This document shows positions 6,894-61,043 of a stretch of DNA of 64,000 bases, piece after piece. The first letter of the stretch is position 1; each line of letters begins with the position of its first letter. The stretch lies in IMG/VR virus record IMGVR_UViG_3300012942_000037, positions 13,245-77,244 of that record; one strand, given 5' to 3'. The notes below the pieces were generated by a model, which was not told the origin of the DNA, did not search any database, and saw nothing but the letters and a program-made list of their open reading frames with translations. The translations under genes and the position numbers were made by a program. This DNA is from a virus (Duplodnaviria > Heunggongvirae > Uroviricota > Caudoviricetes).

Positions 6894-6948
6894 TCACGCC
6901 CTCGGACTAAATAAAGGTAACAGAAACTCTCTTTTAGGAGAATTCACA

Positions 6949-19474: not shown

Positions 19475-21781
19475 ATGGGCAGCACACCAATCATGGTCGT
19501 CAAGCGTGACGGCCGTCAAGAGGTTCTCGACCTCGAGAAAATCCACAAAGTCGTCTTCTGGTCTTGTGAAGGCTTAACTGGTGTTTCACCAAGTGAAGTA
19601 GAACTTCGAGCCAAACTCCAACTCGAAGATGGCACTCCAAGCACCAAGATTCATGAATTGCTCATTAAGAGCGCTAGTGAGCTTATCAGCGAAGACACTC
19701 CGAATTACCAGTATGTGGCTAGTCGTCTAGCTTCCTACCAATTGCGTAAGGAAGTCTATGGCCGATATGAACCCTGGACTGTGAAGCAAGTTGTCGAGGC
19801 CAATGTCAAAGCTGGTCACTACACTAGCGAGCTCCTAGAGAATTTCGATGATGACGATTGGCGCAAAATGGAGAAGATCGTCAAGCATTCTCGAGATGAC
19901 CTGATTGCGTTTGCCGGCATGGAACAATGGCGAGGCAAGTATCTGGTCAAGGATCGTGTCACAGGTCAGTTCTTTGAAACACCACAAATTGCCATTGTCT
20001 TGATCGCTGCTATTGGTTTCATGGCTTACCCCAAAGAGATCCGCATGGAATACATCAAGGATTTCTACGATGCGGTGAGCCAATTTGATATCAGCCTCCC
20101 CACTCCTATCATGGCTGGTTTGCGCACGCCTCAGAAGCAATTCAGTTCATGTGTCACTATCGCGACTGATGATTCCTTGGATTCACTCCTCGCCACCAAT
20201 GGTGCCGTGGTCAAATACATCAGCCAGAAGGCTGGCCTTGGTATCGATATGTCAAGGGTTCGTGCCCAAGGCTCCAAGATCCGCAATGGCGATGCGGAGC
20301 ATACTGGTATGATTCCGTTTGTGCGTTGGTTTCAAAGCGCTGTGAAGAGTTGCTCTCAGGGCGGCGTTCGAGGCGGGGCCGCTACGGTTCACTTCCCCTT
20401 GTGGCATTATGAGTTTGAAGATCTGGTGGTGCTTAAGAACAACAAGGGCACCGAATTCAATCGTATCCGCCAACTCGACTATAGCTTCCTATTCAATCGT
20501 CTGATGTATCAGCGTCTGGTTGAGGGCGGTGATATCACCTTCTTCTCACCTCAAGATGTGCCTGGATTGCTAGATGCTTTCTATGCGGATCAGGATCGCT
20601 TTGATGAGCTTTACGTTCAGTATGAGAATGATCCAAAGATCCGTAAGAAGTCAATGAAAGCTCTGGATGTCTTCATTACGTTCCTAACTGAGCGTAAAGA
20701 GACTGGTCGTATCTATCTCATGAATATCGACCATGCGAATACCCATAGTTCTTACATTCCTGAACTCGCACCTATCACTCAGTCTAACCTTTGTCAGGAG
20801 ATCACGCTTCCAACTTCACCTCTCCAATCCTACGATTGTGATGAAGGGCGGATCAGCCTCTGTACTCTGAGTGCTCTCAATTGGGGACGAGTCAAGACTC
20901 CTCATGATTTTGAAAAGCCAGCTAAACTAGTGGTGCGATTCCTTGATGAGATCCTAAGCTACCAGAACTATCCAGTGAAGGCAGCTGAAATCGCCACCCG
21001 CGAACTCCGCCCACTCGGTGTTGGTATTGTGAATCTGGCCTACTTCCTTGCCAAGAATGGCCTGAAGTATGATGATGCGGCTCTTCCTCTAATTGATGAA
21101 TACATGGAAGGGATGTCTTACTATCTGATCAAAGCTTCAGCCGACCTAGCTGTCGAGAAAGGTGCGTGTCAGGCTGTCTATAAATCCAAGTATAGTAAGG
21201 GTATTCTCCCCATTGACACGTATAAGCGTGATATTGATAACTTGGTTGAACCCCGGTTCCGTATGGAATGGGAAGATCTTCGTAATCAACTCCTCAAGAC
21301 CGGTATCCGTAATACCACATTGATGGCCCTTATGCCAGCCGAGACATCAGCACAGCTCTCGAACTCAACCAATGGTATTGAACCAGTTCGTGCCCTGGTG
21401 AGTGAGAAGGTCAGCAAGCACGGCGTGTTGAAGCAGGTTGTTCCTGAGATTCAGAAGCTCAAGAATAAGTATGAGCTCCTATGGGACCAGAAGAGCCCAC
21501 GTGGTTACATCAAGGTATGTGGTGTACTTCAGAAGTATATTGATCAGGCTATCTCGGCCAACACCTCTTACAATCCTGATCACTATGTTGATCGTGAGAT
21601 TTCGATGAAAGAGATGATCACTGATCTACTGACGATGTACAAATATGGTATCAAGACTGCCTACTATTTCAATACGTATGACGGGCAGGAAGACATCACG
21701 GTTATTAAGGATGAAGCATCTGAAGCTGAAGAGCTTGATCTACTAGAAGATGATGGAACGTGTGATTCCTGCGTTCTTTAA
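19475..21781 (+). CDS. nrdA: ribonucleotide reductase class Ia alpha subunit
   Basis: An N-terminal ATP-cone (VVKRDGRQEVLDLEKI), the catalytic NLCQEI segment, a C-terminal CxxC tail and the 768-aa length all fit. Confidence 0.9.
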   Translation: MGSTPIMVVKRDGRQEVLDLEKIHKVVFWSCEGLTGVSPSEVELRAKLQLEDGTPSTKIHELLIKSASELISEDTPNYQYVASRLASYQLRKEVYGRYEPWTVKQVVEANVKAGHYTSELLENFDDDDWRKMEKIVKHSRDDLIAFAGMEQWRGKYLVKDRVTGQFFETPQIAIVLIAAIGFMAYPKEIRMEYIKDFYDAVSQFDISLPTPIMAGLRTPQKQFSSCVTIATDDSLDSLLATNGAVVKYISQKAGLGIDMSRVRAQGSKIRNGDAEHTGMIPFVRWFQSAVKSCSQGGVRGGAATVHFPLWHYEFEDLVVLKNNKGTEFNRIRQLDYSFLFNRLMYQRLVEGGDITFFSPQDVPGLLDAFYADQDRFDELYVQYENDPKIRKKSMKALDVFITFLTERKETGRIYLMNIDHANTHSSYIPELAPITQSNLCQEITLPTSPLQSYDCDEGRISLCTLSALNWGRVKTPHDFEKPAKLVVRFLDEILSYQNYPVKAAEIATRELRPLGVGIVNLAYFLAKNGLKYDDAALPLIDEYMEGMSYYLIKASADLAVEKGACQAVYKSKYSKGILPIDTYKRDIDNLVEPRFRMEWEDLRNQLLKTGIRNTTLMALMPAETSAQLSNSTNGIEPVRALVSEKVSKHGVLKQVVPEIQKLKNKYELLWDQKSPRGYIKVCGVLQKYIDQAISANTSYNPDHYVDREISMKEMITDLLTMYKYGIKTAYYFNTYDGQEDITVIKDEASEAEELDLLEDDGTCDSCVL

Positions 21782-21787
21782 GTGTGA

Positions 21788-21814
21788 AATCCACGGGTTT
21801 TAGGCCCGTGGATT
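21788..21814 (+). terminator. stem-loop after nrdA
   Basis: AATCCACGGG-loop-CCCGTGGATT, with a weak U-run. Confidence 0.35.
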
Positions 21815-21881
21815 CTCCATCAGAGATAGACAATGATCGACCAGAACCGTATTCTGGTAAGAAAGAGAAAAGAGGCAGGCA

Positions 21882-23012
21882 ATGTCCGTTTTTAACCTAA
21901 ACAAGGTTGACCATCTAACAGCCAAGATGTTTTTCGATCCAAGTGGTCCAGTTGACATTCAGCGTTTCGACCAGGTCAAATATCCTGAAATAGAGCACCT
22001 AACCAACCAGCAGCTTGGTTTCTTTTGGCGACCTGAAGAGATTGATCTCAATACTGATCGCGGAGACTTTGGTAAGCTCACTGATCATGAGAAGCACATC
22101 TTCACCAGCAACCTGAAGAGGCAGATCCTTCTTGATTCGGTTCAAGGTCGCTCACCTACTGCGGCTTTTGGCTCTATCACAAGTCTACCAGAGATGGAGA
22201 CTTGGGCGCAGACTTGGGCGTTCTTTGAAACCATTCATAGTCGTTCATACACTCACATCATCCGCAATGTTTACCCCAATCCTGGTTCAGTTTTTGATGC
22301 GATGAAATCCATTCAGGAGATCGTCGATTGTGCCAAGGATATCAGTGCTAACTATGATGATCTAATTGCTGCTTCTAAGTGGTATGAGCTTTTGGGTGAA
22401 GGTGAGCACCGTGTAAATGGTAAGAAGCTCAAGGTCGACATCTATGAGTTGAAGAAGAAGCTTTGGTTGACCATGATGAGTGTCAACATCCTTGAAGGTG
22501 TTCGATTCTATGTCAGCTTCGCTTGCTCATGGGCTTTTGCTGAAAACAAGCGAATGGAGGGCAATGCCAAGATTATCAAACTCATTGCTCGTGATGAGAA
22601 TCTACATCTTGCTGGCACTCAGAACCTACTCCGCAATATCCTGAAAGCTGATGATCCCCATTATATCAAGATTGCTCAGGAGACCGAAGAGCAATGTATC
22701 GCGATGTATCTGTCAGCTATTCGTCAGGAGAAGGAATGGGCGAGATACCTCTTCAAGGATGGGTCGCTCATTGGTCTTAATGAAGCTCTGCTGAACGAGT
22801 ATGTGGATTATATCGCAGGAACTCGTATGCGTGGTGTGGGATTGAAGGCGCCCTTCAGTATTCCTGCTCGTAATCCCCTACCATGGACCTCTAGCTGGAT
22901 CGCTTCTAAGTCAGTTCAGGTAGCCCCCCAGGAGACCGAGATTTCAAGTTATGTCGTAGGTGGAGTAAAGCAGGATGCTGCCACTGACGATTTCAGCACT
23001 TTCAAACTTTAA
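21882..23012 (+). CDS. nrdB: ribonucleotide reductase class Ia beta subunit
   Basis: Diiron ligand context (IARDENLHLAG) is present and the 376-aa length fits. Confidence 0.9.
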   Translation: MSVFNLNKVDHLTAKMFFDPSGPVDIQRFDQVKYPEIEHLTNQQLGFFWRPEEIDLNTDRGDFGKLTDHEKHIFTSNLKRQILLDSVQGRSPTAAFGSITSLPEMETWAQTWAFFETIHSRSYTHIIRNVYPNPGSVFDAMKSIQEIVDCAKDISANYDDLIAASKWYELLGEGEHRVNGKKLKVDIYELKKKLWLTMMSVNILEGVRFYVSFACSWAFAENKRMEGNAKIIKLIARDENLHLAGTQNLLRNILKADDPHYIKIAQETEEQCIAMYLSAIRQEKEWARYLFKDGSLIGLNEALLNEYVDYIAGTRMRGVGLKAPFSIPARNPLPWTSSWIASKSVQVAPQETEISSYVVGGVKQDAATDDFSTFKL

Positions 23013-24504: not shown

Positions 24505-25267
24505 TTCCAGTGATACCAGCATAGTTCCTCCTGAGCTTAAGGAACATGTTGATGCCTTCTTCGCTCTTCCAACTACCAACCCTTACCATGGCGTGTTGGT
24601 TAATCCGGCTTCGTGTCTGATTGATGATATCCGTGGTAGTCTTGATGATTTGAATAATGCGGGACAGGCCTTGGATAATGCCTCGGGCCAGACTGATTGG
24701 TCTGATTACCAGGATGACTTTGATCAGGATAGCCAGGATATCAACTCTGACTTGGATTCAATTCAGGATCACACTGATCGTCTAACCAGCAACCTACCAA
24801 GCCTGGCTGGTGTGGCTCAAGGTGCTCTAGCACTAGCTACTGTAATGAACCTCCTGAGCAATCCATGCTTAGGTCTGGATGGTATGTTGGGAAGCATTAT
24901 GGATTCTGGTAAACAGCTTCTCAACGATGTCACTAATCAGATCAAGGCAGGTGTGAGTCAAGTCAATAATGCTCTAAGTGATCTCACGAGTGCCATTCAA
25001 TCTGGAGTACAGAGTGCTATTAGTGCGGCGAAGGCAGCTATTAGCCCTCTTATGGACCAGATCAAAGATGGTATCTCGGTGGCAAAACAACAGGTCAGTG
25101 CCTTCATTAGCAAGGCTCAAACTGAGGTTATGAATTTTGCCAAAGCAGCTCTGGCGCAGCTTCGTCAGGGTCTAGCTGAACTTATGGCCAACCTTCCTCA
25201 GGATCCTTGTTTAAAAGGCCTCCTAACAAGTGCTGCCACTGGTGCTGCGGCAGCTATCATAAAATGA
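24341..25267 (+). CDS. hypothetical protein (Ser/Ala-rich helical C-terminus)
   Basis: The ORF track shows 24281..25267; the start is uncertain. Confidence 0.4.
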   Translation, partial: NMLSMSKIVNQEALDSQIYNPTTKPAVLMLQQIMETTPVPAPSATQQNPPPPLVDSSDTSIVPPELKEHVDAFFALPTTNPYHGVLVNPASCLIDDIRGSLDDLNNAGQALDNASGQTDWSDYQDDFDQDSQDINSDLDSIQDHTDRLTSNLPSLAGVAQGALALATVMNLLSNPCLGLDGMLGSIMDSGKQLLNDVTNQIKAGVSQVNNALSDLTSAIQSGVQSAISAAKAAISPLMDQIKDGISVAKQQVSAFISKAQTEVMNFAKAALAQLRQGLAELMANLPQDPCLKGLLTSAATGAAAAIIK

Positions 25268-26241
25268 CCAAAGCGGCAGTTAGGAAGGGTGATAAGTGTA
25301 CAGGCCATGGTGACGCCAAACCACGGCCTTGTGACCAGGGATCACCAGATACATTCATCAACGGTAAGGCGGCGCATCGGCAAGGTGATCATTGGGCTGT
25401 ACATAAGAGCCATGATAGCCACCTAGCCAAGGGCTCTGATTGTGTTTTCGTGAACGGTAAGGGTCAGGGTAGAGTTGGTGATCCGATCCTTTGTGGCTCC
25501 AGGTGTCAACAAGGTAGCCCGAATGTCTTTGTAGGTGATAACAGCTCTAGTGGCACTTCTAGCCAGAGTAGCCAGGGTGCCGCTTCAGCACCTATTGATT
25601 ATTCAAATCCATACCGCTTTGAAGGCGGAGCGGGTGCGAATGGTTATTCAGGTTCTGGCACCATTGAAACTGAAGGTGGTGTCACGGGTGCTACTGATGA
25701 TGCCCCTCCAGCATCTGATCCTGATTCACAAGAACCGCTAGATGCGAGTGATGATGATGTTGATTGGCTTACTACGTGTATGATTGACGAGGCAGGCAAT
25801 CAGAGCCAGAAGGATGCCTGGGCCGCGGTTGCCGCTGTAGTGGTGGATCGCCTTCAAACTGGTAAAGCAACTGGTACAGTCAATCCAGCATGGAAGGGGA
25901 CGATCAAAGGAATAGTTTTGGCTAATGGTCAGTTTTCAGGCTTCTACTTTGAGATGATCAACCGCAAATATACCAGAGTCGTAGCTAGCAAGGATTGGGC
26001 TGCGGCCGAGAAACGTGGTAAGCAGAAAATGGCCGCTTATCGGAAGCGATCTCAATGGAATGCCTTTCATGAGGTAGCCCAGCAGGTAGTTAGCGGAACA
26101 TATAATGGAGGAGCGGCATGGCGACTTGTGAAGAGCAGACCAGCCCTCATGTATTGTAATTTGGCTATCTCGAATCCACCCTGGGCTACCCAGAGCAAAT
26201 ATGTGACTAAGATTGAGGATCACACGTTCTTCTTAGCTTGA
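25264..26241 (+). CDS. PAAR-like tail-tip protein fused to a SleB-type cell-wall hydrolase domain
   Basis: The N-terminus has GDKCTGHGD...FINGKAAHRQGD...FVNGKGQGRVGD repeats, which are PAAR-like. The C-terminus has DEAGNQ...AVAAVVVDRL...NGQFSGF, a Hydrolase_2/SleB-like signature. The ATG overlaps the upstream stop (ATGA). Confidence 0.55.
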   Translation: MTKAAVRKGDKCTGHGDAKPRPCDQGSPDTFINGKAAHRQGDHWAVHKSHDSHLAKGSDCVFVNGKGQGRVGDPILCGSRCQQGSPNVFVGDNSSSGTSSQSSQGAASAPIDYSNPYRFEGGAGANGYSGSGTIETEGGVTGATDDAPPASDPDSQEPLDASDDDVDWLTTCMIDEAGNQSQKDAWAAVAAVVVDRLQTGKATGTVNPAWKGTIKGIVLANGQFSGFYFEMINRKYTRVVASKDWAAAEKRGKQKMAAYRKRSQWNAFHEVAQQVVSGTYNGGAAWRLVKSRPALMYCNLAISNPPWATQSKYVTKIEDHTFFLA

Positions 26242-26266
26242 CATCTTGGTGCTTTGTTGCTATATA
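26238..26266 (+). promoter_or_regulatory. sigma70-like promoter for the tmRNA gene
   Basis: TTGACA, a 17-nt spacer, then TATATA. Confidence 0.6.
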
Positions 26267-26272
26267 GATGAT

Positions 26273-26337
26273 GCTATTGAAGACCGAAGCCTAGTATCGA
26301 CTAGCGGACGCGGGGGCAGTACCCGCCAGGTCCACCA
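26273..26337 (+). ncRNA. ssrA: tmRNA acceptor piece of a permuted, two-piece ssrA
   Basis: It ends GGACGCGGGGGCAGUACCCGCCAGGUCCACCA: a T-arm-like hairpin, the 3' acceptor strand CAGGUCC, then ACCA. The 5' end is approximate. Confidence 0.6.
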
Positions 26338-26504
26338 TAGCAAGTGACCTAGGAGCACTCAGAGCAATCTGGGCGGCGCCAAAACCACTGAGGGAATCGA
26401 AGGATCTCAACCGGATCTGGGTCCTGAGGATGGTATGAGGAAGGGTGGATGAAAGTGGGGCACCGCGGAAGGCCTCATGAGTAAGGTAAGTCACTTGCTT
26501 TGCT

Positions 26505-26700
26505 GGGCCTGAACTAGGATCGACGTGGAAGAGAACGGCAGAGAGAAGATCCAGGCAACTGGTGAAGCGATGGTGAGGGTGGCTCCTCTAAAAGGCCACG
26601 CAGAATACCTGCAAACGACAACACTGTCGAGGTTGCGCTCGCTGCCTAAGGTAGCGCGGGTAACCGCCTAAAGTCTTAGGGCTTCGACTCCTTAAGCGCG
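26505..26700 (+). ncRNA. ssrA: tmRNA coding piece of a permuted ssrA, with tag ORF 26609..26647
   Basis: It starts GGGCCUGAACUAGGAUCGACGUGG (compare E. coli GGGGCUGAUUCUGGAUUCGACGGG). Its GGGCCUG pairs with the upstream CAGGUCC and includes a G3-U wobble. From the resume GCA the tag reads ANDNTVEVALAA-stop. GGCUUCG at 26678 pairs with CGAAGCC at 26285. The 3' end is approximate. Confidence 0.65.
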
Positions 26701-26900
26701 GTATGGTTCCACCGGGCAACAGAACGGGCCACTCTTCCTGATACTCTTGACCTATTGGTAAACTCCGTTACTCTAGAAGGACAACGGGGCAAATCGATAT
26801 GTGACATCAAGTGACTGACTAGATGGGAGTAAACCCACAATAATCTTCATAATACGGGTACGCATCCAGGGCTTAACATCTCCAATTATAGGGGATCTAT

Positions 26901-28610
26901 ATGGCACAGGGTGAACCAGTTGATTTTTCATGGATTAGGCAATCGCTTACCTATGATAAAGCCAGCGAGGACAGAGTGGATAAAGCAATCAAGTCCGACA
27001 TCAATATCAAGATGCTTACCGAACTCGCGCCGACTATCATATGGACGCGGAACGCTAAGTGGGATTTGACCTATATCAACTCATATTGGTTCGAATTCAC
27101 AGGTTGTGAGGATCGTCCAGTCAGAGAGATCAACTGGCAGGAATTCATCCATCCTGATGATCTCAAAGGAGTCACGGATTACTGGAACACAGCTCTTGAA
27201 CTCCAACTTGAGTTCAAGGTTGATCTACGTCTTCGTCGCCGAGATGGTGAATACCGATGGTTCCAATCAGTCGGCCGACCAGTCACCAATCAGGCTGGTG
27301 AAGTTATTCAATGGCTTGGTGTTTCATCGATCATTCAGGACCTCAAAGACGCCCAAGAAGAAACTGAACGCCTCCGTCAGAAACTTGAAGAAAAGGTTCT
27401 CGAGCGTACACGAGCTCTTGAAGAAGCTCAGGCACAGGTTCTCGCCGAAATTAGTGCTCGACAAGCCACCCAGGATGCTCTCCGCCAAGCACAGAAGATG
27501 GAGAGTGTTGGTCAATTAACTGGTGGCATAGCACATGATTTCAACAACATGCTCACTGTGATCATCGGCAATCTCGAACTCCTCAAGATGAGCGCTCCAA
27601 AACTAGGCGATAATCCAGTCGCAAAACGCATGGAGCGGAATGTTAGGATGGCTATTGAGGCATCCATGAAGGCAGAGAAGCTTACCGCTCAGTTGTTGGC
27701 TTTCTCAAGAAAAGCCCGTCTCCAGCTGGAGCGTCTTGATGCCAATGTGGTTGTCATCGGGGTAAAGGAAATGGTCGAGAGAGCTGTTGGTCTTTCAGTT
27801 AGCTGCGACATTAAGATCCAGGAAGACCTATGGCTTTGCTTGAGTGACAAGACCCAGCTTGAAAGCGCAATCATCAATCTAGCTATCAATGCTCGAGATG
27901 CCATGCCGGAAGGCGGTAAACTTTGTATCTCGACTGCCAACAAAGTGATGGAGGATCTCCGCTTTGTTAGCGTTTCAGTCAGTGATACTGGTCTGGGTAT
28001 GAACCAGGAAACTCTGGAGAAGGCTTGTGAACCGTTCTTCACTACCAAGGATGTTGGCAAGGGTTCAGGTCTTGGCCTTTCGATGGTTTACGGTTTCTGC
28101 GAGCAATCAAATGGTAAACTGCTCATCGAGAGCGAAGAGGGCAAGGGCACGATCGTTGAAATGCTCTTCCCCTTCACTGCTGGTGAGACTATCGAAGAGA
28201 CGCAAGCTGAAGAGGATTTCAATTTCGATGCCGCTAAGCAAAGCATCCTAGTAGTGGATGATGAACCAGCGGTCAGAGAGCTGGCCTGCCAATTGCTAAC
28301 TGATGCTGGCTTTAACGTAATCAGCGCTCAAGATGGTCAATCGGCGATTAAGATCATCCAAGACTCCACCATACCGTTGGATCTGCTATTTACAGACATT
28401 GTGATGCCTGGTGGTATTGATGGGTTTGGCTTGGCTAAAATCACCAAACAGGAACGACCCACCCTTCCGATTATTTTCACAACAGGCCATGCGGAGGTCG
28501 CCCTCAAGGAATTGAAGAAGGACCTCACGCAGAAGATCAAGGTGATTGGTAAGCCTTATCGTTTGAATGAGTTGAAGCAGATGATTCTACATGAACTGGC
28601 AATTCAGTAA
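26901..28610 (+). CDS. PAS-containing hybrid histidine kinase (CckA-like: PAS, DHp, CA, REC)
   Basis: PAS domain ([18 protein letters not shown]...[14 protein letters not shown]). H-box [22 protein letters not shown]-box [11 protein letters not shown]-boxes DTGLGM / [10 protein letters not shown]-terminal receiver [12 protein letters not shown]...[10 protein letters not shown]...KPY. Confidence 0.8.
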
Positions 28611-29625: not shown

Positions 29626-30000
29626 ATGTCGAATGGTCGTATTCTTCTAGTTGAAGATGAGCCAATGCTCCACTTCCTTTGGGAAGACATGTGTGCGATC
29701 AGTGATTTCGAAATAGCCTTTACTGCGATGACCTGTCAAGAAGCCATGGCCTACTTCCAGGATCATCATGCTGAACTATCGGGTGTGATCCTTGATGTGA
29801 ACCTCCACGGGGAAACAAGCGGCCCAGTCGCGGAATATCTCAAACTGCTATCCATACCAGTTATTGTTTCAACAGGTAGCCATCCTGATTCATTACCAGA
29901 AATCTTCAGGGGCTGGCCAACCCTCATGAAGCCATATAGGCCACATGATATAACTGGTATCCTGCCGTCTTTGGCCTTCTGTAAGCAAATAGTCAGGTAA
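29626..30000 (+). CDS. stand-alone receiver (REC) domain protein
   Basis: LLVEDEP acidic pocket, a candidate phospho-acceptor Asp in GVILDVNL, then VSTGS and the conserved MKPY. There is no output domain. Confidence 0.55.
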   Translation: MSNGRILLVEDEPMLHFLWEDMCAISDFEIAFTAMTCQEAMAYFQDHHAELSGVILDVNLHGETSGPVAEYLKLLSIPVIVSTGSHPDSLPEIFRGWPTLMKPYRPHDITGILPSLAFCKQIVR

Positions 30001-30151: not shown

Positions 30152-30454
30152 ATGGCAGACGATCTATTTCAATGGCCTCAACCCAACACGACCGTCGTAA
30201 ACCTCAAAGAGGAACACTATGACGTTCGTATTGATCGCAAGACCAAATGGGGAAATCCATTCGTAGTTGGGCGAGACGGCACCCGCGAGGAATGTATCAG
30301 CCAGTTCGCCGATTGGATTGTGGAACAATCTCACCTCATGGAAGCTCTACATGAGCTCAAGGGCAAGCGTCTGGGTTGTTGGTGTCATCCCCAAGCATGT
30401 CATGGTAACGTGCTAGCCAAGTTGGCAGATGCGAGTAGGGTTCCTACCAAATAA
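30152..30454 (+). CDS. hypothetical protein (DUF4326-like)
   Basis: KWGNPF...CWCHPQACHG. Confidence 0.45.
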   Translation: MADDLFQWPQPNTTVVNLKEEHYDVRIDRKTKWGNPFVVGRDGTREECISQFADWIVEQSHLMEALHELKGKRLGCWCHPQACHGNVLAKLADASRVPTK

Positions 30455-30494
30455 GATTTGACAGGTGGTTCACCATTCGCTTAAAGCGGATCAC

Positions 30495-31127
30495 ATGGAC
30501 TTCATGGCATTCCTCACCGCTCCGCAGAATCTGGCGTTCCTAATAGCTGGCATTCTCGTCATGGCTATCTTCATCATCGAGTTCCTAGGAACGATGGTTG
30601 GTTTCTCACTGAGTCACCTGGGACCCGACTTCCATATTGACCTAGATCATGATGGCACTCCTGATCATCTTGAGGGTGCTAGCCTTATGGGCTGGCTCAA
30701 CCCAGGCGGTGTGCCGTTCATGATTTTTATCACCCTGGGGGTGACGATCTTTGCGATTATTGGTTATGCCATTCAGGCAGTTACCTGGTCCTACACAGCG
30801 TATTTGCTGTCAGGATTGATCATTGGTCCGATCTCATTCTTATTGATGCTCATATGCGTCCGCCCTTTGACTCGTTGGGTGAACAAGATCCTGCCTAGGG
30901 AGGAGAGTAGCGATGTCAGTCTCAATAGCCTAATTGGTGAGACTGGTGTAGTGACCGTGGGCCCTGTAACCAAAGGTCAATTTGGTTTCATTCGGGTCCG
31001 CGACAAGTTTGGTACTGATCATTCGATCCAGGTCGAAGCAAGCAATGATGAGGTGTTTGCGATTGGTTCTGAAGTTCAACTGGTTGGGCCTCACCCAACC
31101 AATCTGTATGCGTATCTAATCCGCTAA
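30495..31127 (+). CDS. NfeD-like membrane protein (membrane anchor plus C-terminal OB-fold)
   Basis: Multiple TM helices are followed by GETGVVTV...GFIRV..., an OB-fold-like C-terminus. It lies directly upstream of the SPFH gene. The ORF track begins at 30465. Confidence 0.6.
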   Translation: MDFMAFLTAPQNLAFLIAGILVMAIFIIEFLGTMVGFSLSHLGPDFHIDLDHDGTPDHLEGASLMGWLNPGGVPFMIFITLGVTIFAIIGYAIQAVTWSYTAYLLSGLIIGPISFLLMLICVRPLTRWVNKILPREESSDVSLNSLIGETGVVTVGPVTKGQFGFIRVRDKFGTDHSIQVEASNDEVFAIGSEVQLVGPHPTNLYAYLIR

Positions 31128-31139
31128 CTGGAGAATACA

Positions 31140-32876
31140 ATGTCCATCAAGTTCATTGGCTTGCTGGTCGGGCTGGCTGTCGTAGGATTCCTGATCCTCG
31201 GCATGATCATCACCCGGCTCTATAAGCGAGCTTCCAAGGAAACTGCTTTTGTCCGCACCGGTATGGGCGGTCAGAAGGTGATCAAGGATGGCGGCGCCCT
31301 CGTCATTCCAGTCGTTCATGAAACCCTCGACATTAACATGCAGACTCTTCGTCTGTCGGTTAATCGTGGTGGTCAGAATGACTCGCTTATTACCAAGGAT
31401 CGTCTGCGTGTTGACGTGAACGCTGAGTTTTACGTTCGTGTTGCTCCAGATACCGAGAGCATTGCTACTGCGGCTCAGACGCTTGGTAAGCGCACCATGG
31501 ATCCAAGTCAGCTAAGCACCCTCGTTGAGGGCAAGTTCGTTGACGCTTTGCGAGCCGCCGCTGCTTCGATGGATATGCAGGATCTGCATGAGAAGCGCAC
31601 TGAGTTCGTTCAGAAGGTCAAGACCACTGTTGCCGAGGATCTGAAGCAGAATGGTCTCGAGCTTGAGTCAGTCAGCCTGACCAACTTGAACCAGACTGAC
31701 ATCAGTCACTTCGATGCCAACAATGCTTTCGATGCTGAGGGTCTCGCGGTGATCGCCAAGGTCACCAACGCGCGCCGTAAGGAACGCAACGACATCGAGA
31801 AGCAGACCGAGGTTGAAATCGAGACTAAGAACCTCGAGACTACCAAGGCGACGCTGGCTCTGAAGCAGGATGGTGAGTTCGCCCGCCTGGATCAGGAGAA
31901 GCAGGTTCAGACTCGTGCTGCTGAGCAGGAATCGCAGCTTGCTATTGCTCGTGCCGAGCGTGAGCGGGAAGCACAGGTCGCTGCAGAATCAGCGAAGCAG
32001 GCGTCGGAGCAGGCTCGTATTGAACGCGAGCGCGGTGTCAAGGTGGCACAGACCCAGGCCGACCAGGATACTGAATTGGCTGCTCAGGCCTCGCGTATTG
32101 CGGTTGCCGAGAAGTCCGAGGCAGAGTCGAAGGCCAAGGCGAAGGCTGACGAAGCTCGCGCTGAAGCTACCAGGGCTGCTGAAAACGTAACTACCGTTTC
32201 GGCGACTGCTCGGGCGGATCGTGAAGCCCAGATTGCCGTTATTGCGGCAGAGGGTGAAGCGAAGCAGAAGGCAGCTAGTGTCACGGTTCAGGCCGAGGCT
32301 GAGCTCAAGGCTGCTGATTCACAGGCGAGGGCTAAGGAACGCCTTGCTGACGCAGACGCCAAGCGCTACCAGGTCGAATCCGAGGGTCAGCGTTCCATCC
32401 ATGAGGCTGGTAACGTAATCAGCCCTGAGAGCATGAACTTCCAGCTTCGGAAGGCCATGGTCGAGCGCCTGCCAGAAATCATCGAAGCGATGACCCGTCC
32501 AATCGAGAAGATTGACAGCTTCCGCGTCGTTCATATGAATGGCGGGCTGGGCACTGGTCAGACCAATGGTGAGGCTGGTTCGGTTGCGGAGAAGGGTAAT
32601 CTGCCAACGCAGATGACCAACGCGCTGCTGGATTATCGGATGCAGTCTCCGTTCGTAGACGCCCTGGGCAAGGAACTCGGTATCGACTTCTCCAAGGGCA
32701 TGAACGGCATGATGGAAGCGGCGGGCCTCTCCGTTGAGGTCTCGGATCTTCCGGAAGAGGTGGTCAAGCCATCCATTCCGAATGAAGCTGCTCAGCCGGT
32801 TACTACTCGTGAAGCCCCATTGGCACCCGAGGATAAGGCTGAAATCCAGAAGCTTGCTGGGATCGCCAACGGCTGA
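31140..32876 (+). CDS. flotillin-like SPFH/band-7 protein (YqiK/FloT-like)
   Basis: An N-terminal TM helix is followed by an SPFH domain and then a long Ala/Glu/Gln coiled coil (EAQ.. repeats). Length is 578 aa. Confidence 0.8.
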   Translation: MSIKFIGLLVGLAVVGFLILGMIITRLYKRASKETAFVRTGMGGQKVIKDGGALVIPVVHETLDINMQTLRLSVNRGGQNDSLITKDRLRVDVNAEFYVRVAPDTESIATAAQTLGKRTMDPSQLSTLVEGKFVDALRAAAASMDMQDLHEKRTEFVQKVKTTVAEDLKQNGLELESVSLTNLNQTDISHFDANNAFDAEGLAVIAKVTNARRKERNDIEKQTEVEIETKNLETTKATLALKQDGEFARLDQEKQVQTRAAEQESQLAIARAEREREAQVAAESAKQASEQARIERERGVKVAQTQADQDTELAAQASRIAVAEKSEAESKAKAKADEARAEATRAAENVTTVSATARADREAQIAVIAAEGEAKQKAASVTVQAEAELKAADSQARAKERLADADAKRYQVESEGQRSIHEAGNVISPESMNFQLRKAMVERLPEIIEAMTRPIEKIDSFRVVHMNGGLGTGQTNGEAGSVAEKGNLPTQMTNALLDYRMQSPFVDALGKELGIDFSKGMNGMMEAAGLSVEVSDLPEEVVKPSIPNEAAQPVTTREAPLAPEDKAEIQKLAGIANG

Positions 32877-32957
32877 TACGGCCCTAGTAGAGCGCTACAG
32901 GGTGGGCTGGTAGAAATACCAGCCCATTCCTGTCTGAGTCTTTCTGTTGTAGACATT

Positions 32958-33650
32958 ATGGAATGTATCGCCCATACTGGTCCTAGATCAATGAGGGATA
33001 GCATGTCAGGCCGTTTAGCTAAGATCGTTTCTTTGGGTGGAGTAGCTTGTGTCTTCACGGGTGGTATGATCACCCTCCCCTTTCACCAACTCAGTGACCT
33101 CGCCATTAGCTTACCATTATCTCTGATTACCGGCGCGGGTATTTGGCATTTCTGGCCGGGCCATCTACCAGCCAAACCAGACGTCGAACAACTATTCAGC
33201 GACCAGGAAGCTCTTAAGAGAGCTGGCGTGAGCAAGGCAGAGAGTATTGAAACTATCAGGCTGGTCAGTAACAAGCTAGATCACATCCTCATGTGTGCGG
33301 CTCAGATCAACGATCCAAAGATCACTCGTCGCATCCAAGCCCTTGATACCATTGGCAGGAAGATCATTGCTGACTTCCGCCAGAACCCCACAGGTATCAA
33401 ACAAGCTCAAACATGGATCCATGCCTATTTGGATCAGACCATCGATTGTGTGGATCAATACGCACAACTCCATATGACCAAAGTGCGTAATGATGAAATT
33501 CGCCGTCAGATGGTGGAATTTGAAGACATGCTTGTTGAGCTCCAGGAGAAGTCACAGGAATTGCTGGATAGGCTCCTATCCGCAGATACCACGACCTTTG
33601 AAGTCAATGTTTCAGTGTTTCGTGATATGATGAAGAACGAGGGAATCTAA
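32958..33650 (+). CDS. XpaC-like protein (5-bromo-4-chloroindolyl phosphate hydrolysis protein family)
   Basis: An N-terminal membrane anchor is followed by a helical domain. Adjacency to a TelA-like gene mirrors the Bacillus yaaN-xpaC arrangement. The start is uncertain. Confidence 0.4.
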   Translation: MECIAHTGPRSMRDSMSGRLAKIVSLGGVACVFTGGMITLPFHQLSDLAISLPLSLITGAGIWHFWPGHLPAKPDVEQLFSDQEALKRAGVSKAESIETIRLVSNKLDHILMCAAQINDPKITRRIQALDTIGRKIIADFRQNPTGIKQAQTWIHAYLDQTIDCVDQYAQLHMTKVRNDEIRRQMVEFEDMLVELQEKSQELLDRLLSADTTTFEVNVSVFRDMMKNEGI

Positions 33651-34810: not shown

Positions 34811-35280
34811 GGCTCTTATCGCTCCTTTCTCTAATGGGGCTTGGTGGTGGGATTCTCTTGCTCTTGGCTGTGCTTTTGATGGCGAACTCATCCGCCAAAT
34901 TACCACAGGCCGACAAGTTTGGATCGCATTATATCAAGGTTGATCACGTCTACGACGGCGATACCTTCTACTTCAGAATGCCAGGTAGTTGGCCCGAACT
35001 CAGCATGGTAGGGGTTCGGGTCTTGGGCATCGATGCTCCTGAGAAGCGTGGGCGATGCGCTGCTGAACGTCAGAGGGCTAATGAGGCTAAGCTGGCCGCC
35101 CAAACCTTCCTTAGTAGAGGTCCGGTTGAACTCCGTAATGTGCGCTGGGACAAATACGGAGGCCGGATAGAGGCCGATGTTCTGGTTGACGGCCAAAGCC
35201 TCTCCAGTTACATGATCAGCCAGAAGTTAGCTCGACCCTATCATGGTGAGCACAGGGATAAACTGGAGTGGTGCCGATGA
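34807..35280 (+). CDS. secreted thermonuclease (SNase-like)
   Basis: There is a signal/TM peptide, then YDGDTF...RVLGIDAPE and a downstream R...R/KYG motif. Confidence 0.7.
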   Translation: MRLLSLLSLMGLGGGILLLLAVLLMANSSAKLPQADKFGSHYIKVDHVYDGDTFYFRMPGSWPELSMVGVRVLGIDAPEKRGRCAAERQRANEAKLAAQTFLSRGPVELRNVRWDKYGGRIEADVLVDGQSLSSYMISQKLARPYHGEHRDKLEWCR

Positions 35281-59726: not shown

Positions 59727-60983
59727 ATGAGTGAAACCAAAAAGAATCTGAGCTGCTCTTTCTGTAGCAAAAGGCAGGAAGACGTTCAGAAGCTGATTGC
59801 TGGTCCAGATGTTTTCATCTGTAATGATTGCGTACAGCTTTGCGCTGATATACTCAAAGAAGATGATAACGGTGTTGCTTCTTTGGGTTTCAAAGATGGT
59901 ATTCCATCCCCTCGCCAAATTAAAGAGTTCCTTGATCAATACGTGATCGGCCAGGATGAAGCCAAGATGGTCATGGGTGTGGCAGTTCACAACCATTACA
60001 AGCGCTTGGCCAATCCAGTAGTTGATGATGTGGAGCTCGAGAAGTCCAACATTCTTTTACTGGGCCCAACTGGCTCGGGTAAGACCCTCATGGCTAGGTC
60101 GATTGCCAAGCTTCTTGATGTGCCTTTCACCATTGCTGATGCGACCAGCCTTACTGAGGCTGGTTATGTGGGTGATGATGTCGAGACCATTATTTCACGC
60201 CTTTTACAAGTCTGCGATAATGACATTTCGAAGGCTGAACGCGGCATCATCTACTTGGATGAGGTGGATAAGAAAGCAAAGCGTGGTGACTCAGCTAGTA
60301 TTAGCCGTGATGTCTCGGGCGAAGGCGTTCAACAAGCCCTACTGAAGATCATTGAGGGCAGTGAAGTTCGAGTTCCAGTCACGGGTAACCGCAAACATCC
60401 AAACGCCGAAATGGCCGTTGTGAATACCAAGAATATCCTCTTTATCGTCGGTGGTGCTTTTGTAGGTCTGGATGATATCGTGGCAAAGCGTCTTAACAAG
60501 GGTAAGAGTGGCATTGGCTTCGGTGCTTCTATTCAGATGGCCGAAGATTCAAAGAAAGCAGCCAGTGAAGCATTGCTCAAGATGGTTGAACCTGAAGACC
60601 TGACCAAATTTGGTCTCATTCCTGAACTAGTTGGTCGCTTACCAGTCATTACCAATCTGGAAGAGCTGGATCAGGAGCAAATGGTAAAAGTACTGACTGA
60701 GCCAAAGAATGCTCTTGTGAAGCAATTCCAGAAGCAATTCCAACTAGCCGGTGTTGATTTGGAATTTGACGATGAGGCCCTCAAAGCTATTGCCAAGAAT
60801 GCTATCACACGGAAGACCGGGGCGAGAGGTCTTAGGAGCGTGATTGAGAAGCGATTGATCAAGGTCCAATTTGATCTTCCTGATCTCAAGGCTCAAGGGG
60901 CTCACGCGGTTCGAGTAAGCCAGGATGTAATCGATGGCTCGGCTGAACCACTAGTGGTTTATGAAAAGGCTGCTAATGAATGA
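59727..60983 (+). CDS. clpX: ATP-dependent protease ATPase subunit ClpX
   Basis: N-terminal C4 zinc finger (CSFCSKRQEDV...FICNDC), the IGF-loop-containing AAA+ domain, and Walker A LLLGPTGSGKT. Length is 418 aa. Confidence 0.9.
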   Translation: MSETKKNLSCSFCSKRQEDVQKLIAGPDVFICNDCVQLCADILKEDDNGVASLGFKDGIPSPRQIKEFLDQYVIGQDEAKMVMGVAVHNHYKRLANPVVDDVELEKSNILLLGPTGSGKTLMARSIAKLLDVPFTIADATSLTEAGYVGDDVETIISRLLQVCDNDISKAERGIIYLDEVDKKAKRGDSASISRDVSGEGVQQALLKIIEGSEVRVPVTGNRKHPNAEMAVVNTKNILFIVGGAFVGLDDIVAKRLNKGKSGIGFGASIQMAEDSKKAASEALLKMVEPEDLTKFGLIPELVGRLPVITNLEELDQEQMVKVLTEPKNALVKQFQKQFQLAGVDLEFDDEALKAIAKNAITRKTGARGLRSVIEKRLIKVQFDLPDLKAQGAHAVRVSQDVIDGSAEPLVVYEKAANE

Positions 60984-61043
60984 TTGACACCAAAGAGACC
61001 CGTGTTAATCTTCCATCTACCTAAAAGAAAGGAACTACTGTCT

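What the first reader, a model, noticed from the sequence alone, without database searches (positions are those of the whole stretch)
26238..26700. Phage-encoded circularly permuted (two-piece) tmRNA with its own promoter
The intergenic region has a textbook promoter (TTGACA, 17 nt, TATATA at 26238-26266), then a segment ending ...GGACGCGGGGGCAGUACCCGCCAGGUCCACCA at 26337. That is a T-arm-like hairpin, the 3' acceptor strand and ACCA. About 167 nt further on, at 26505, comes GGGCCUGAACUAGGAUCGACGUGG. This matches the canonical tmRNA 5' end, and its GGGCCUG pairs with the upstream CAGGUCC including a G3-U wobble, the alanine identity element. An in-frame tag ORF from the resume codon GCA at 26609 reads ANDNTVEVALAA-UAA. 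The 3'-half-before-5'-half order is the permuted ssrA arrangement of alphaproteobacteria and cyanobacteria, and the ANDN...ALAA tag is the proteobacterial type. With an encoded ClpX nearby, the phage could redirect trans-translation and the degradation of tagged proteins.
Basis: seen in the sequence. Interest (0 to 1): 0.8.

Follow-up and report, generated by a model that had tools for sequence, protein, structure and literature searches.

The report
Phage-borne two-piece tmRNA gene
The region is a genuine, evolutionarily maintained gene for a circularly permuted (two-piece) ribosome-rescue RNA (tmRNA) carried by a large phage of alphaproteobacteria; this is a real feature, but of a kind already recorded in other phages, including cultured relatives of this one.

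Summary
ARAGORN calls a permuted tmRNA at 26242-26740 with the tag ANDNTVEVALAA. Rfam gives 115 bits (E 1e-30) for alpha_tmRNA and 73 bits for tmRNA_permuted. All stated coordinates hold, except that the resume codon is at 26611, not 26609. ClpX is real but lies 33 kb away.

The context is a phage related to the Sinorhizobium and Agrobacterium jumbo phages Phosso, AP-J-162 and Atu_ph07. Homologous tmRNA genes sit in the same place, after the PAAR/cell-wall-hydrolase gene, in two metagenomic relatives and in cultured phage Phosso. In Phosso the gene is unannotated and ARAGORN misses it.

Across the three close copies, 98% of proposed pairs hold and 7 pairs show compensatory changes, in the T arm, P2, a GNRA hairpin and both PK1 stems. 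The closest relative has four substitutions in the tag, all synonymous. The gene is therefore under selection as a working tmRNA. It presumably uses host SmpB, AlaRS and RNase P, since no SmpB was found in 83 kb of the contig.

Phage two-piece tmRNAs are already documented: 53 in one 2022 survey, and AP-J-162 is listed with one tmRNA. This is a new member of a known kind. The 167-nt intervening segment is structured and conserved in the closest relative, but is 53 or 410 nt and unrelated in other relatives.

The parts
26237..26266 (+). Promoter: CTTGACA (-35), a 17-nt spacer, and CTATATA (-10 region). The -35 overlaps the TGA stop (26239-26241) of the upstream PAAR/hydrolase ORF.
   Evidence: Sequence read. 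The exact CTTGAC-N17-CTATAT is unique in the window. Both hexamers are identical in L002 while the spacer differs at 4 positions. Phage copies L013, L014, L036 and L038 have a TTGACA-type -35 at the same place (Phosso: TTGACT). Not listed by the generic scan. No transcript data.
26273..26337 (+). Acceptor piece (65 nt). It holds the 3' strands of P2c (26273-26279), P2b (26289-26291) and P2a (26301-26306), the T arm (26310-26326), the acceptor 3' strand (26327-26333) and the encoded ACCA (26334-26337). The 5' end is inferred from the promoter spacing.
   Evidence: Identity to L002 is 96.9%. In all four phage copies this piece is 65 nt from the P2c strand to the CCA.
26338..26504 (+). Intervening segment (167 nt), expected to be excised. 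It is a branched hairpin domain closed by GCAAGUGACC (26340-26349) pairing within 26485-26498, which extends the acceptor helix in the precursor.
   Evidence: RNAalifold structure: all six substitutions relative to L002 are tolerated, comprising one A-U to G-C double change in a GCAA-capped hairpin, two single-sided changes that keep the pair, and two in unpaired positions. Identity is 96.4%, against 79-80% in the flanking ORFs. No Rfam family matches. In the relatives the segment is 53 nt (L038) and 410 nt (Phosso), with no shared sequence found with Phosso's by local alignment and none seen by eye with L038's.
26505..26733 (+). Coding piece. In order: acceptor 5' strand 26505-26511; D-loop analogue AACUAGGAUCGACG 26512-26525; P2a/b 5' strands; GNRA hairpin 26551-26562; P2c 5' strand 26568-26574; pseudoknot PK1 26575-26599; 11-nt spacer; tag ORF; P5 hairpin 26640-26656 with the stop codon in its loop; GUAA hairpin 26656-26667; hairpin 26675-26696; terminal pseudoknot 26699-26731. 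The 3' end is taken from the end of the Rfam model and was not determined.
   Evidence: The 3' block ACCGGGCAACAGAA matches the alpha consensus ACCuGGCAACAGAA.
26611..26649 (+). Tag reading frame: GCA resume codon through UAA, encoding ANDNTVEVALAA*.
   Evidence: ARAGORN. L002 encodes the identical peptide with 4 substitutions, all synonymous. About 26% of possible single substitutions in this frame are synonymous, so four out of four has a probability of roughly 0.0045. U-5/A-4 before the resume codon is kept in the window, L002 and L038.
59727..60983 (+). Phage ClpX, a possible downstream partner for tagged proteins. It is 33 kb away and no link to the tmRNA has been shown.
   Evidence: Pfam zf-C4_ClpX, AAA_2 and ClpB_D2-small. 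The GYVG, RKH and IGF loops are present in the translation. It is adjacent to IF-3 (60984-61562) and close to the type II topoisomerase subunit gene (55422-57293), the same neighbours as reported for phage AP-J-162 (PMC11242549).

Best explanation
This is a functional ssrA gene of the alphaproteobacterial circularly permuted type, resident in a large phage related to the Sinorhizobium/Agrobacterium jumbo phages.

Inferred mechanism:
1. Host RNA polymerase starts at the CTTGAC-N17-CTATAT promoter, near 26273.
2. The roughly 460-nt precursor folds so that the 167-nt intervening domain extends the acceptor helix.
3. Host RNase P cuts 5' of G26505. Host nucleases remove the intervening domain and trim back to the encoded CCA at 26337.
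4. This leaves a 65-nt acceptor RNA and a coding RNA of about 229 nt, held together by the 7-bp acceptor stem and helices P2a-c.
5. Host AlaRS charges the RNA through G3:U and the A discriminator.
6. Host SmpB and EF-Tu deliver it to ribosomes stalled on broken mRNAs.
7. Translation resumes at GCA 26611 and appends ANDNTVEVALAA. The C-terminal LAA targets the product to ClpXP-type proteases, either host ones or the phage's own ClpX docking on host ClpP.

The likely benefit is more ribosome-rescue and clean-up capacity while infection, host-mRNA decay or RNA-cleaving defences generate non-stop messages.

Shown here: the identity of the gene, its architecture, its conservation and its covariation. 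Inferred: transcription start, processing, charging, the partner proteins and the benefit to the phage.
For: Detection:
- ARAGORN calls a permuted tmRNA.
- RF01849 gives 115 bits (E 1e-30) and RF04321 gives 73 bits.

Phage context:
- RNR, a DnaB-type helicase, a type II topoisomerase, a virion protein and a PAAR-hydrolase.
- The helicase is 64% identical to phage Phosso and 56% to Atu_ph07.
- The relative contig is in IMG/VR.

Syntenic homologues after the PAAR/hydrolase gene:
- L002.
- L038.
- Phosso, at 108 and 113 bits.

Selection:
- Against L002, the acceptor piece is 96.9% identical and the 3' coding part 94%, while the flanking ORFs are 79-80% and the downstream spacer 59%.
- The tag peptide is identical, with 4 of 4 substitutions synonymous.

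Structure:
- On the alignment of the three close copies, 98.3% of cells pair.
- Seven pairs show changes on both sides, in the T arm, P2a, P2c, the GNRA hairpin and PK1 stems S1 (two pairs) and S2.
- Slid controls give 0-2 such pairs, and 2 of 500 shuffles reach the observed value.
- The P5 hairpin changes from U-A to C-G.

Functional signatures kept:
- G3:U, A73 and an encoded CCA.
- The alpha-type T loop GGCAGUA and the D-loop analogue UAGGAUCGACG.
- UA at positions -5/-4, and PK1 followed by 11 nt before the resume codon.

Possible partner: the phage ClpX has the GYVG, RKH and IGF loops.
Against: - There are no expression, processing or charging data.
- No SmpB was found. The RNA must therefore rely on host SmpB.
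- The Rfam score is about half that of cellular alpha tmRNAs with the same acceptor arm (191-236 bits). The 5' hairpin of the alpha model is absent and P2 is short.
- The covariation rests on three sequences, and I derived the structure from those same sequences, so the controls are favourable by construction.
- No terminator was found after the gene.
- The -10 element lacks the canonical T at its last position.
Confidence: 0.8

Rival explanations
1. The RNA is made, but it acts mainly as a modifier or competitor of host trans-translation rather than as extra rescue capacity. It would outcompete host tmRNA for SmpB so that stalled-ribosome products receive a phage-specified tag. That tag would be routed to the phage ClpX (with ClpS also encoded nearby), for example to recycle host proteins or to blunt a host stress or abortive-infection signal.
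For: - The tag (12 aa) differs from those of cellular tmRNAs with the same acceptor arm (20-24 aa).
- Tags differ among the phage relatives in the middle, while ANDN and LAA are kept: ANDNTVVEARLAA in L038 and ANDNVSTKVALAA in Phosso.
- The phage encodes a complete ClpX and, just beyond the window, ClpS.
- A TLD-only tmRNA-like gene is carried by mycobacteriophage DS6A, and a similar molecule strongly inhibits tmRNA, perhaps by titrating SmpB (PMC4131195).
Against: - The tag keeps the ordinary ANDN...ALAA degron, so nothing marks it as orthogonal.
- ClpX is 33 kb away and sits in a ClpX-IF3-topoisomerase neighbourhood.
- The host and its own tag are unknown, so no difference from the host tag can be demonstrated.
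Confidence: 0.12
2. The locus is a non-functional relic: a captured host ssrA copy, or an attP-type ssrA fragment left by integration or excision at the host tmRNA gene.
For: ssrA is a common integration site, and phages often carry fragments of it (PMC9004378; PMC4383910, listed). The Rfam score is low compared with cellular copies.
Against: - Both pieces, the promoter and the tag frame are complete.
- No integrase-like family appears among the neighbouring genes examined.
- The gene is kept at the same locus in four phages and is more conserved than the flanking genes.
- There are compensatory changes, and only synonymous changes in the tag.
Confidence: 0.04
3. The window is bacterial chromosome, and this is the host's own ssrA lying beside a prophage.
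For: Several of the IMG/VR hits with alpha-type tmRNA lie at or near the ends of short contigs, and could be provirus-flanking host genes.
Against: - Phage genes lie on both sides for tens of kb.
- The locus is syntenic with the 469-kb genome of the cultured phage Phosso.
- No tRNA, rRNA or other Rfam family is found in the window.
- The score and tag length are unlike those of cellular copies.
Confidence: 0.02

Closest known systems
Alphaproteobacterial two-piece tmRNA (ssrA; Rfam RF01849 alpha_tmRNA; prototype Caulobacter crescentus, Keiler, Shapiro and Williams 2000, as cited in PMC9004378)
   Same: - The gene order is permuted: the acceptor piece with encoded CCA comes first, then an excised linker, then the coding piece.
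- A 7-bp acceptor stem with G3:U, the alpha-specific T loop GGCxGUA and the D-loop analogue UAGGAUCGACG.
- The tag begins ANDN and ends AA.
- The 3' block ACCGGGCAACAGAA is conserved.
- Linkers of 25-173 nt occur in cellular copies with the same acceptor arm.
   Different: - It is carried by a phage.
- It scores 115 bits, against 191-236 for those cellular copies.
- The 5' hairpin of the model is missing and P2 is reduced to 3 + 5 + 7 bp, with an inserted GNRA hairpin.
- The tag is 12 aa, against 20-24 aa.
tmRNA genes of the related rhizobial jumbo phages: Sinorhizobium phage Phosso (PV764938, found here) and AP-J-162 (tmRNA count of 1 in Table 1 of PMC11242549)
   Same: - The same phage lineage: the helicase is 64% identical.
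- The same locus, after the PAAR gene and upstream of the SPFH-TelA block.
- The same permuted alpha type, a 65-nt acceptor piece and an ANDN...ALAA tag.
- The same ClpX-IF3-topoisomerase neighbourhood.
   Different: - Phosso's linker is 410 nt and unrelated in sequence.
- Its acceptor stem is GGGGCUG and its PK1 follows the alpha consensus.
- Its 3' domain is shorter and ends in an intrinsic terminator.
- No DNA-level match to the window was found.
- I did not examine the AP-J-162 sequence itself.
Two-piece tmRNAs of other phages: OM43 phage Melnitz and pelagimyophages (PMC9004378); Mesorhizobium phage Cp1R7A-A1 and Erythrobacter phage vB_EliS-L02 (found here)
   Same: - Complete alpha-type permuted ssrA genes in lytic-looking phage genomes with a promoter of their own.
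- Rfam scores of 84-112 bits, similar to this one.
- 53 two-piece tmRNAs were found among 18,146 phage genomes.
   Different: - Unrelated phages and different loci; in vB_EliS-L02 the gene follows a tRNA array.
- Linkers of about 90 nt.
- Melnitz has a glutamine riboswitch in the gene. No riboswitch family matches here.
One-piece phage tmRNAs (mycobacteriophage Bxz1 group, Bacillus phage G) and the TLD-only gene of mycobacteriophage DS6A (PMC4131195)
   Same: A phage-borne ssrA-type gene with no SmpB found alongside it (here: none in 83 kb of the contig).
   Different: Those genes are in the standard, non-permuted order. DS6A lacks a tag frame and may act as an inhibitor, whereas this gene has a conserved tag frame.

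Membership tests
Permuted (two-piece) tmRNA, alpha type (RF01849 / RF04321) | Scores above the curated covariance-model thresholds | tested here: met
   RF01849 gives 115 bits against a gathering score of 50. RF04321 gives 73 bits against 47. ARAGORN calls it tmRNA*.
Permuted (two-piece) tmRNA, alpha type (RF01849 / RF04321) | Circularly permuted order: the T arm, 3' acceptor strand and CCA lie upstream of the 5' acceptor strand and the tag | tested here: met
   The CCA ends at 26337. The 5' strand starts at 26505 and the tag at 26611.
Permuted (two-piece) tmRNA, alpha type (RF01849 / RF04321) | A tRNA-Ala-like domain: 7-bp acceptor stem with G3:U, discriminator A, and a 5-bp T stem with a 7-nt loop | tested here: met
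   GGGCCUG pairs with CAGGUCC, including G26507:U26331, followed by ACCA. The T arm is GCGGG-GGCAGUA-CCCGC. All three close copies pair at 100% in these helices. The T-stem pair 38-54 switches from G-C to C-G in L038. In Phosso, acceptor pair 4 is G-C instead of C-G.
Permuted (two-piece) tmRNA, alpha type (RF01849 / RF04321) | A tag reading frame with an alanine resume codon, a hydrophobic ...AA end and a stop codon, under selection as a peptide | tested here: met
   ANDNTVEVALAA*. In L002 there are 4 substitutions, all synonymous. The stop codon lies in the loop of the P5 hairpin, which covaries.
Permuted (two-piece) tmRNA, alpha type (RF01849 / RF04321) | Pseudoknot PK1 just upstream of the resume codon, and the upstream UA determinant | tested here: met
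   S1 is GAGG/CCUC and S2 is GUGGC/GCCAC, followed by 11 nt and then GCA. S1 shows two double changes and S2 one, across the three copies. U-5/A-4 is kept. The comparison with the layout of E. coli PK1 is from my own knowledge and was not tested.
Permuted (two-piece) tmRNA, alpha type (RF01849 / RF04321) | Helix P2 joining the two pieces between the tRNA-like domain and PK1 | tested here: inconclusive
   The Rfam alignment shows deletions and non-canonical pairs in P2. My alternative is P2a 5 bp, P2b 3 bp and P2c 7 bp. It pairs in 100% of cells and has one double change each in P2a and P2c. However, it was derived from the same three sequences.
Permuted (two-piece) tmRNA, alpha type (RF01849 / RF04321) | Processing into two RNAs, alanylation, SmpB binding and tagging in vivo | not testable with these tools
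   No transcript or biochemical data are available. No SmpB gene was found in the window or in the gene tables for 83 kb of the contig.
ssrA fragment at a phage attachment site (attP) | Only the 3' part of ssrA is present, next to an integrase | tested here: not met
   The gene is full length, with a promoter and a tag. The neighbours are a PAAR-hydrolase and a hybrid histidine kinase, with no integrase family among the genes scanned.

The most novel reading that the evidence does not exclude
The 167-nt segment between the two pieces may be more than disposable linker. It could be a structured RNA domain with a role of its own, such as gating maturation of the tmRNA during infection, or being released as a stable small RNA.

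It is as conserved as the mature parts in the closest relative: 96.4% identical, against 79-80% for the neighbouring genes and 59% for the next spacer. All six substitutions fit its predicted fold. This phage lineage carries long linkers (167 and 410 nt). However, the linker is only 53 nt in a third relative, and I found no sequence shared with the other linkers.
Probability: 0.1. Interest if true: 0.55.

Novelty: new member of a known kind. Interest (0 to 1): 0.3.

Why it matters
What any phage tmRNA does remains a matter of hypothesis in the papers read here. This lineage offers a tractable case, because cultured relatives (Phosso and AP-J-162 on Sinorhizobium meliloti) carry the homologous gene at the same locus. 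They also carry ClpX and IF-3, and this contig additionally has ribosomal protein S21 and ClpS just beyond the window. A deletion, or a tag swap, could therefore test directly whether phages use trans-translation for ribosome recycling, for protein turnover or against RNA-cleaving defences.

In practical terms, the work shows that such genes go unannotated in deposited phage genomes. ARAGORN misses the Phosso copy, which has a 410-nt linker, and the L036 copy, so surveys based on ARAGORN undercount them.

Tried and rejected
- DNA searches of the tmRNA region and of 24 kb around it against 50,697 deposited phage genomes found nothing. Relatives were found only through exact-pattern, protein and covariance-model routes.
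- A degenerate pattern for the exact tag peptide found only the one relative contig, in both IMG/VR and the JGI metagenomes, and no candidate host ssrA.
- The single genome-collection scan, keyed on the acceptor arm, returned nine alphaproteobacterial MAGs with different, longer tags. The host was therefore not identified.
- The generic promoter/terminator scan lists neither this promoter nor a terminator for the gene.
- I looked for a known RNA family, an ORF or shared sequence in the intervening segments of the window and of Phosso. There was no Rfam family and no shared sequence for either; no ORF of note turned up in a six-frame translation of Phosso's or on reading the window's by eye.
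- My first by-eye pairing inside the linker (CUCAG/CUGAG) was replaced by the RNAalifold hairpin CUCAGA-GCAA-UCUGGG.
- The minimum-free-energy cofold pairs GCCU with AGGC. I rejected this pairing because it conflicts with the covarying GNRA hairpin.
- With only the window and L002, the pair count had no statistical power. Adding L038 gave a usable test.
All were negative, but this is a weak test.
- Searching the sample and contig identifiers found no paper, so the environment is unknown.
- I first called the phage 'jumbo'. The source contig is 125,051 bp and the relative's is 125,232 bp, so genome size and completeness are unknown, although the closest cultured relatives are 469-490 kb.
Full report
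**1. What is in the sequence**

- TTGACA lies at 26238-26243, followed by 17 nt and TATATA at 26261-26266. Read one base earlier, this is CTTGAC-N17-CTATAT at 26237-26265.
- The hairpin GCGGG-GGCAGUA-CCCGC lies at 26310-26326.
- CAGGUCC lies at 26327-26333, followed by ACCA ending at 26337.
- After 167 nt comes GGGCCUGAACUAGGAUCGACG, starting at 26505.
- GGGCCUG pairs with CAGGUCC over seven base pairs, and the third pair is G26507:U26331.
- The tag frame GCA...UAA reads ANDNTVEVALAA*.
- The -35 hexamer overlaps the TGA stop of the upstream ORF (25207-26241).

**2. Is it more than chance?**

ARAGORN finds a single gene in the 64 kb, a permuted tmRNA with that tag. Rfam gives RF01849 alpha_tmRNA 115 bits (gathering score 50, E 1.2e-30), matched from the first to the last model position. 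It gives RF04321 tmRNA_permuted 73 bits (gathering score 47). The exact 12-of-12 motif CTTGAC-N17-CTATAT occurs only here in the window.

The generic sigma-70 scan does not report the site, because it requires a T at the last -10 position. From my own knowledge, not tested here, CTTGAC-N17-CTATAT is the consensus reported for rhizobial housekeeping promoters. The first 39 positions of the Rfam alpha model carry the same CUU...CUAUAU pattern. Several other phage copies have a TTGACA-type -35 at the same distance (Phosso has TTGACT).

**3. Context: a phage, and which one**

Both flanks are phage-like.
- Upstream are class I ribonucleotide reductase (19475-23012), a virion structural protein (12684-14660), a DnaB-type helicase (1547-3049) and a PAAR protein fused to a cell-wall hydrolase (25207-26241).
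- Downstream are a PAS-HisKA-HATPase-REC hybrid kinase (26901-28610), an SPFH/flotillin-TelA block, an Ig-domain structural protein, type II topoisomerase subunits, ClpX (59727-60983) and IF-3 (60984-61562).

The helicase is 64% identical to Sinorhizobium phage Phosso (469 kb) and 56% to Agrobacterium phage Atu_ph07 (490 kb). The structural protein also hits these two best.

The window comes from ENA contig ERZ27256360:k141_1147045, which is 125,051 bp. Its completeness is unknown. G+C is 48%.

The published description of Sinorhizobium jumbo phage AP-J-162 (471.5 kb, 47% G+C) notes clpX next to IF-3 and the topoisomerase genes. These are the same neighbours as ClpX has here. That paper also lists one tmRNA for AP-J-162 and none for Atu_ph07 (PMC11242549).

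No integrase-like family was seen among the genes scanned. ARAGORN finds no tRNA in the window, and Rfam's gathering-threshold scan finds no rRNA or other RNA family there. ARAGORN also finds no tRNA in the two further loci, so none is called across 83 kb of the contig.

**4. Relatives carry the same gene in the same place**

- An IMG/VR contig of 125,232 bp (L001/L002, also L015) is about 80% identical in the flanking genes. It has the tmRNA between the same two genes.
- A second IMG/VR contig (L038, 8.9 kb) has the same order of RNR, PAAR-hydrolase and tmRNA. Its tmRNA is about 80% identical in the mature parts, with the tag ANDNTVVEARLAA.
- Phosso has a permuted alpha tmRNA just downstream of its PAAR gene and upstream of its SPFH-TelA block (L022 5554-6243, minus strand). 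It scores 108 bits on RF01849 and 113 bits on RF04321, and its tag is ANDNVSTKVALAA.
- The Phosso record has no feature at that place, and ARAGORN misses the gene.
- In all four copies the acceptor piece, from the first P2 strand to the CCA, is 65 nt.

The gene is therefore an inherited trait of this phage lineage, not a recent pick-up.

**5. Evidence of selection**

Identity between the window and L002, by part:

| Part | Identity |
|---|---|
| Acceptor piece | 96.9% |
| Intervening segment | 96.4% |
| 3' part of the coding piece | 94.0% |
| Tag (nucleotides) | 87.5% |
| Flanking ORFs | 79-80% |
| Spacer after the gene | 59% |

The four substitutions in the tag are all synonymous. About 26% of possible single changes in this frame are synonymous, so four out of four has a probability of roughly 0.0045.

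I wrote a structure for the acceptor piece plus the 5' part of the coding piece and counted it on the alignment of the window, L002 and L038.
- 98.3% of cells pair.
- Seven pairs change on both sides: the first pair of the T stem, P2a, P2c, the GNRA hairpin, two pairs in PK1 stem 1 and one in PK1 stem 2.
- Sliding the partners by 1-3 columns gives 0-2 such pairs and 29-47% pairing. Only 2 of 500 shuffles reach the observed values.
- One of the two unpaired cells is an alignment artefact of a 9-nt loop insertion in L002. The other is a terminal G-A at PK1 S2 (pair 141-170) in L038.

The P5 hairpin, which holds the stop codon in its loop, switches from U-A to C-G.

Two caveats apply. There are only three sequences, and I derived the structure from those same sequences. 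The direction of the evidence is clear, but its statistical weight is modest.

**6. Anatomy**

- The promoter lies at 26237-26266.
- The acceptor piece runs from about 26273 to 26337.
- The linker runs from 26338 to 26504.
- The coding piece runs from 26505 to about 26733.

Within the coding piece, in order, are the following:
- the D-loop analogue AACUAGGAUCGACG;
- the 5' strands of P2a and P2b;
- a hairpin CCAG-GCAA-CUGG, which is CCGG-GAAA-CCGG in L002;
- the P2c strand CGAUGGU, which pairs with GCUAUUG at the very 5' end of the acceptor piece;
- PK1, with the layout GAGG-GUGGC-U-CCUC-UAAAAG-GCCAC;
- 11 nt carrying U at -5 and A at -4;
- the tag;
- the P5 hairpin;
- a GUAA-capped hairpin;
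- a 7-bp hairpin;
- a terminal pseudoknot around the conserved ACCGGGCAACAGAA.

Compared with the alpha consensus, the 5' hairpin of the acceptor piece is missing and P2 is shorter. This explains the lower score of 115 bits, against 191-236 bits for nine cellular alpha tmRNAs that share the acceptor arm. Other phage copies score in the same range, 84-113 bits.

**7. The intervening segment**

In the precursor it folds into a branched domain closed by a 10-bp stem that continues the acceptor helix. All six differences from L002 are compatible with the fold. They comprise one A-U to G-C double change in a GCAA-capped hairpin, two single-sided changes that keep the pair, and two in unpaired positions.

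It matches no Rfam family, even at permissive thresholds. I saw no ORF of note on reading it.

Its length is not exceptional. Cellular copies with the same acceptor arm have linkers of 25-173 nt. Within the phage lineage the linker is 53 nt in L038 and 410 nt in Phosso, and local alignment found no sequence shared between the window's and Phosso's linkers.

The simplest reading is a structured spacer that is constrained locally, for precursor folding and nuclease access, but is replaceable over longer times. A separate function is not excluded.

**8. How it most likely works**

Shown here: this is a complete, conserved, covarying tmRNA gene of the permuted alpha type in a phage.

Inferred, from what is established for Caulobacter and E. 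coli tmRNA:
- transcription by the host RNA polymerase holoenzyme starting near 26273;
- RNase P cleavage before G26505;
- removal of the linker and trimming to the encoded CCA;
- alanylation through G3:U and the A discriminator;
- delivery by host SmpB and EF-Tu to stalled ribosomes;
- resumption at GCA and addition of ANDNTVEVALAA;
- degradation of the product through the C-terminal LAA.

No SmpB was found in the window (a weak test) or in the gene tables covering 83 kb of the 125-kb contig. The RNA should therefore depend on host SmpB.

The phage ClpX keeps the zinc finger, the Walker A motif, and the GYVG, RKH and IGF loops. By analogy with E. coli ClpX, it could dock on host ClpP and accept ssrA-type tails. 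Just beyond the window the contig also encodes ribosomal protein S21 and ClpS. A coordinated take-over of translation quality control is plausible, but nothing here demonstrates it.

**9. Rivals**

- A competitor or re-router of host trans-translation (confidence 0.12).
- A relic or attP fragment (0.04). This is contradicted by the completeness of the gene, its synteny in four phages and the pattern of substitutions.
- Host chromosomal ssrA beside a prophage (0.02). This is contradicted by phage genes on both sides and by synteny with a cultured phage genome.

**10. Comparison with what is known, and novelty**

- Phage tmRNAs have been catalogued since the Bxz1-type mycobacteriophages and Bacillus phage G (PMC4131195).
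- Huge phages were reported to carry tmRNAs and SmpB (PMC7162821).
- A 2022 survey found tmRNA genes in 402 of 18,146 phage genomes, 53 of them two-piece. It described the alpha-type two-piece gene of OM43 phage Melnitz (PMC9004378).
- The 2025 tmRNA database holds 79 phage sequences (PMC11915505).
- Here I also found unannotated alpha-type permuted genes in Mesorhizobium phage Cp1R7A-A1 and Erythrobacter phage vB_EliS-L02. One strict pattern found 19 further copies in IMG/VR contigs of up to 216 kb, though some may be host genes flanking proviruses.

This finding is therefore a new member of a known kind: correct and well supported, but not surprising to a specialist. Its value lies in the lineage-wide conservation, the co-occurrence with ClpX, IF-3, S21 and ClpS, and the existence of cultured relatives in which the function could be tested.

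**11. Verdict**

- Novelty: a new member of a known kind.
- Interest: 0.3.

Noticed in passing
L022 5554-6243 (minus strand) = Sinorhizobium phage Phosso PV764938, about 349553-350242: A complete permuted alpha-type tmRNA (RF04321 113 bits, RF01849 108 bits, tag ANDNVSTKVALAA). It has a 410-nt intervening segment and an intrinsic terminator. It lies in a 750-bp gap with no annotated feature, and ARAGORN does not call it.
   Followed up: yes
L013 1440-1848 (Erythrobacter phage vB_EliS-L02, OL955261) and L014 1439-1848 (Mesorhizobium phage Cp1R7A-A1, MT188704): Both deposited genomes carry an alpha-type permuted tmRNA gene, each with its own CTTGACA promoter-like site. Neither gene is annotated. 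In vB_EliS-L02 it follows directly after an array of 12 tRNA genes.
   Followed up: partly
L036 (IMGVR_UViG_3300016667_000484, 195 kb), reverse-complement coordinates about 6760-7110: Another permuted tmRNA in a large viral contig, which ARAGORN misses. It has the same GGGCC(C/U)G-type acceptor stem and the tag ANDNVAPVAYALAA.
   Followed up: partly
window 55422-57293 (-), 59727-60983 (+), 60984-61562 (+); L021 11607-11870 and 14491-14784 (just beyond the window end): A cluster of translation and proteostasis genes: a topoisomerase II subunit, ClpX and translation initiation factor IF-3 side by side. Within 7 kb beyond the window are ribosomal protein S21, ClpS, a NUDIX protein and an HD_4 (RelA/SpoT-type hydrolase) domain protein.
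   Followed up: partly
window 41780-42901 (+): An ORF with a PolyA_pol head domain and a weak tRNA_NucTran2_2 hit, that is, a CCA-adding enzyme or poly(A) polymerase-like protein. ARAGORN finds no tRNA gene in 83 kb of this phage contig, and the tmRNA gene encodes its own CCA.
   Followed up: no
window 26901-28610 (+), 29626-30000 (+), 7780-9444 (-): Phage-encoded two-component signalling parts. A PAS-HisKA-HATPase-REC hybrid histidine kinase lies immediately downstream of the tmRNA. There is also a stand-alone receiver-domain protein and a 554-aa multi-PAS protein. No close homologue of the kinase was found in deposited phage genomes.
   Followed up: partly
window 26746-26774 (+): A second promoter-like site, CTTGACC-N16-TACTCT, lies right after the tmRNA gene and ahead of the kinase gene. 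It is nearly identical in L002, although the rest of that spacer is only 59% identical.
   Followed up: no
window 30465-34810 (+): A block of YqiJ (NfeD-like membrane protein), SPFH/flotillin, a 'Halogen_Hydrol' family protein and TelA (toxic anion resistance). The SPFH and TelA genes are annotated in the same order in phage Phosso.
   Followed up: partly
window 25207-26241 (+): A PAAR motif fused to a cell-wall hydrolase (Hydrolase_2) domain in one ORF. In Phosso the PAAR protein is a separate 94-aa gene followed by another small ORF.
   Followed up: partly
window 34807-35774 (+), 30152-30454 (+), 40788-41372 (+), 57938-58324 (+): Other accessory genes: an SNase-like nuclease, a NADAR domain protein, DUF4326, an HNH endonuclease and an S-adenosylmethionine decarboxylase-family (AdoMet_dc) protein.
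   Followed up: no
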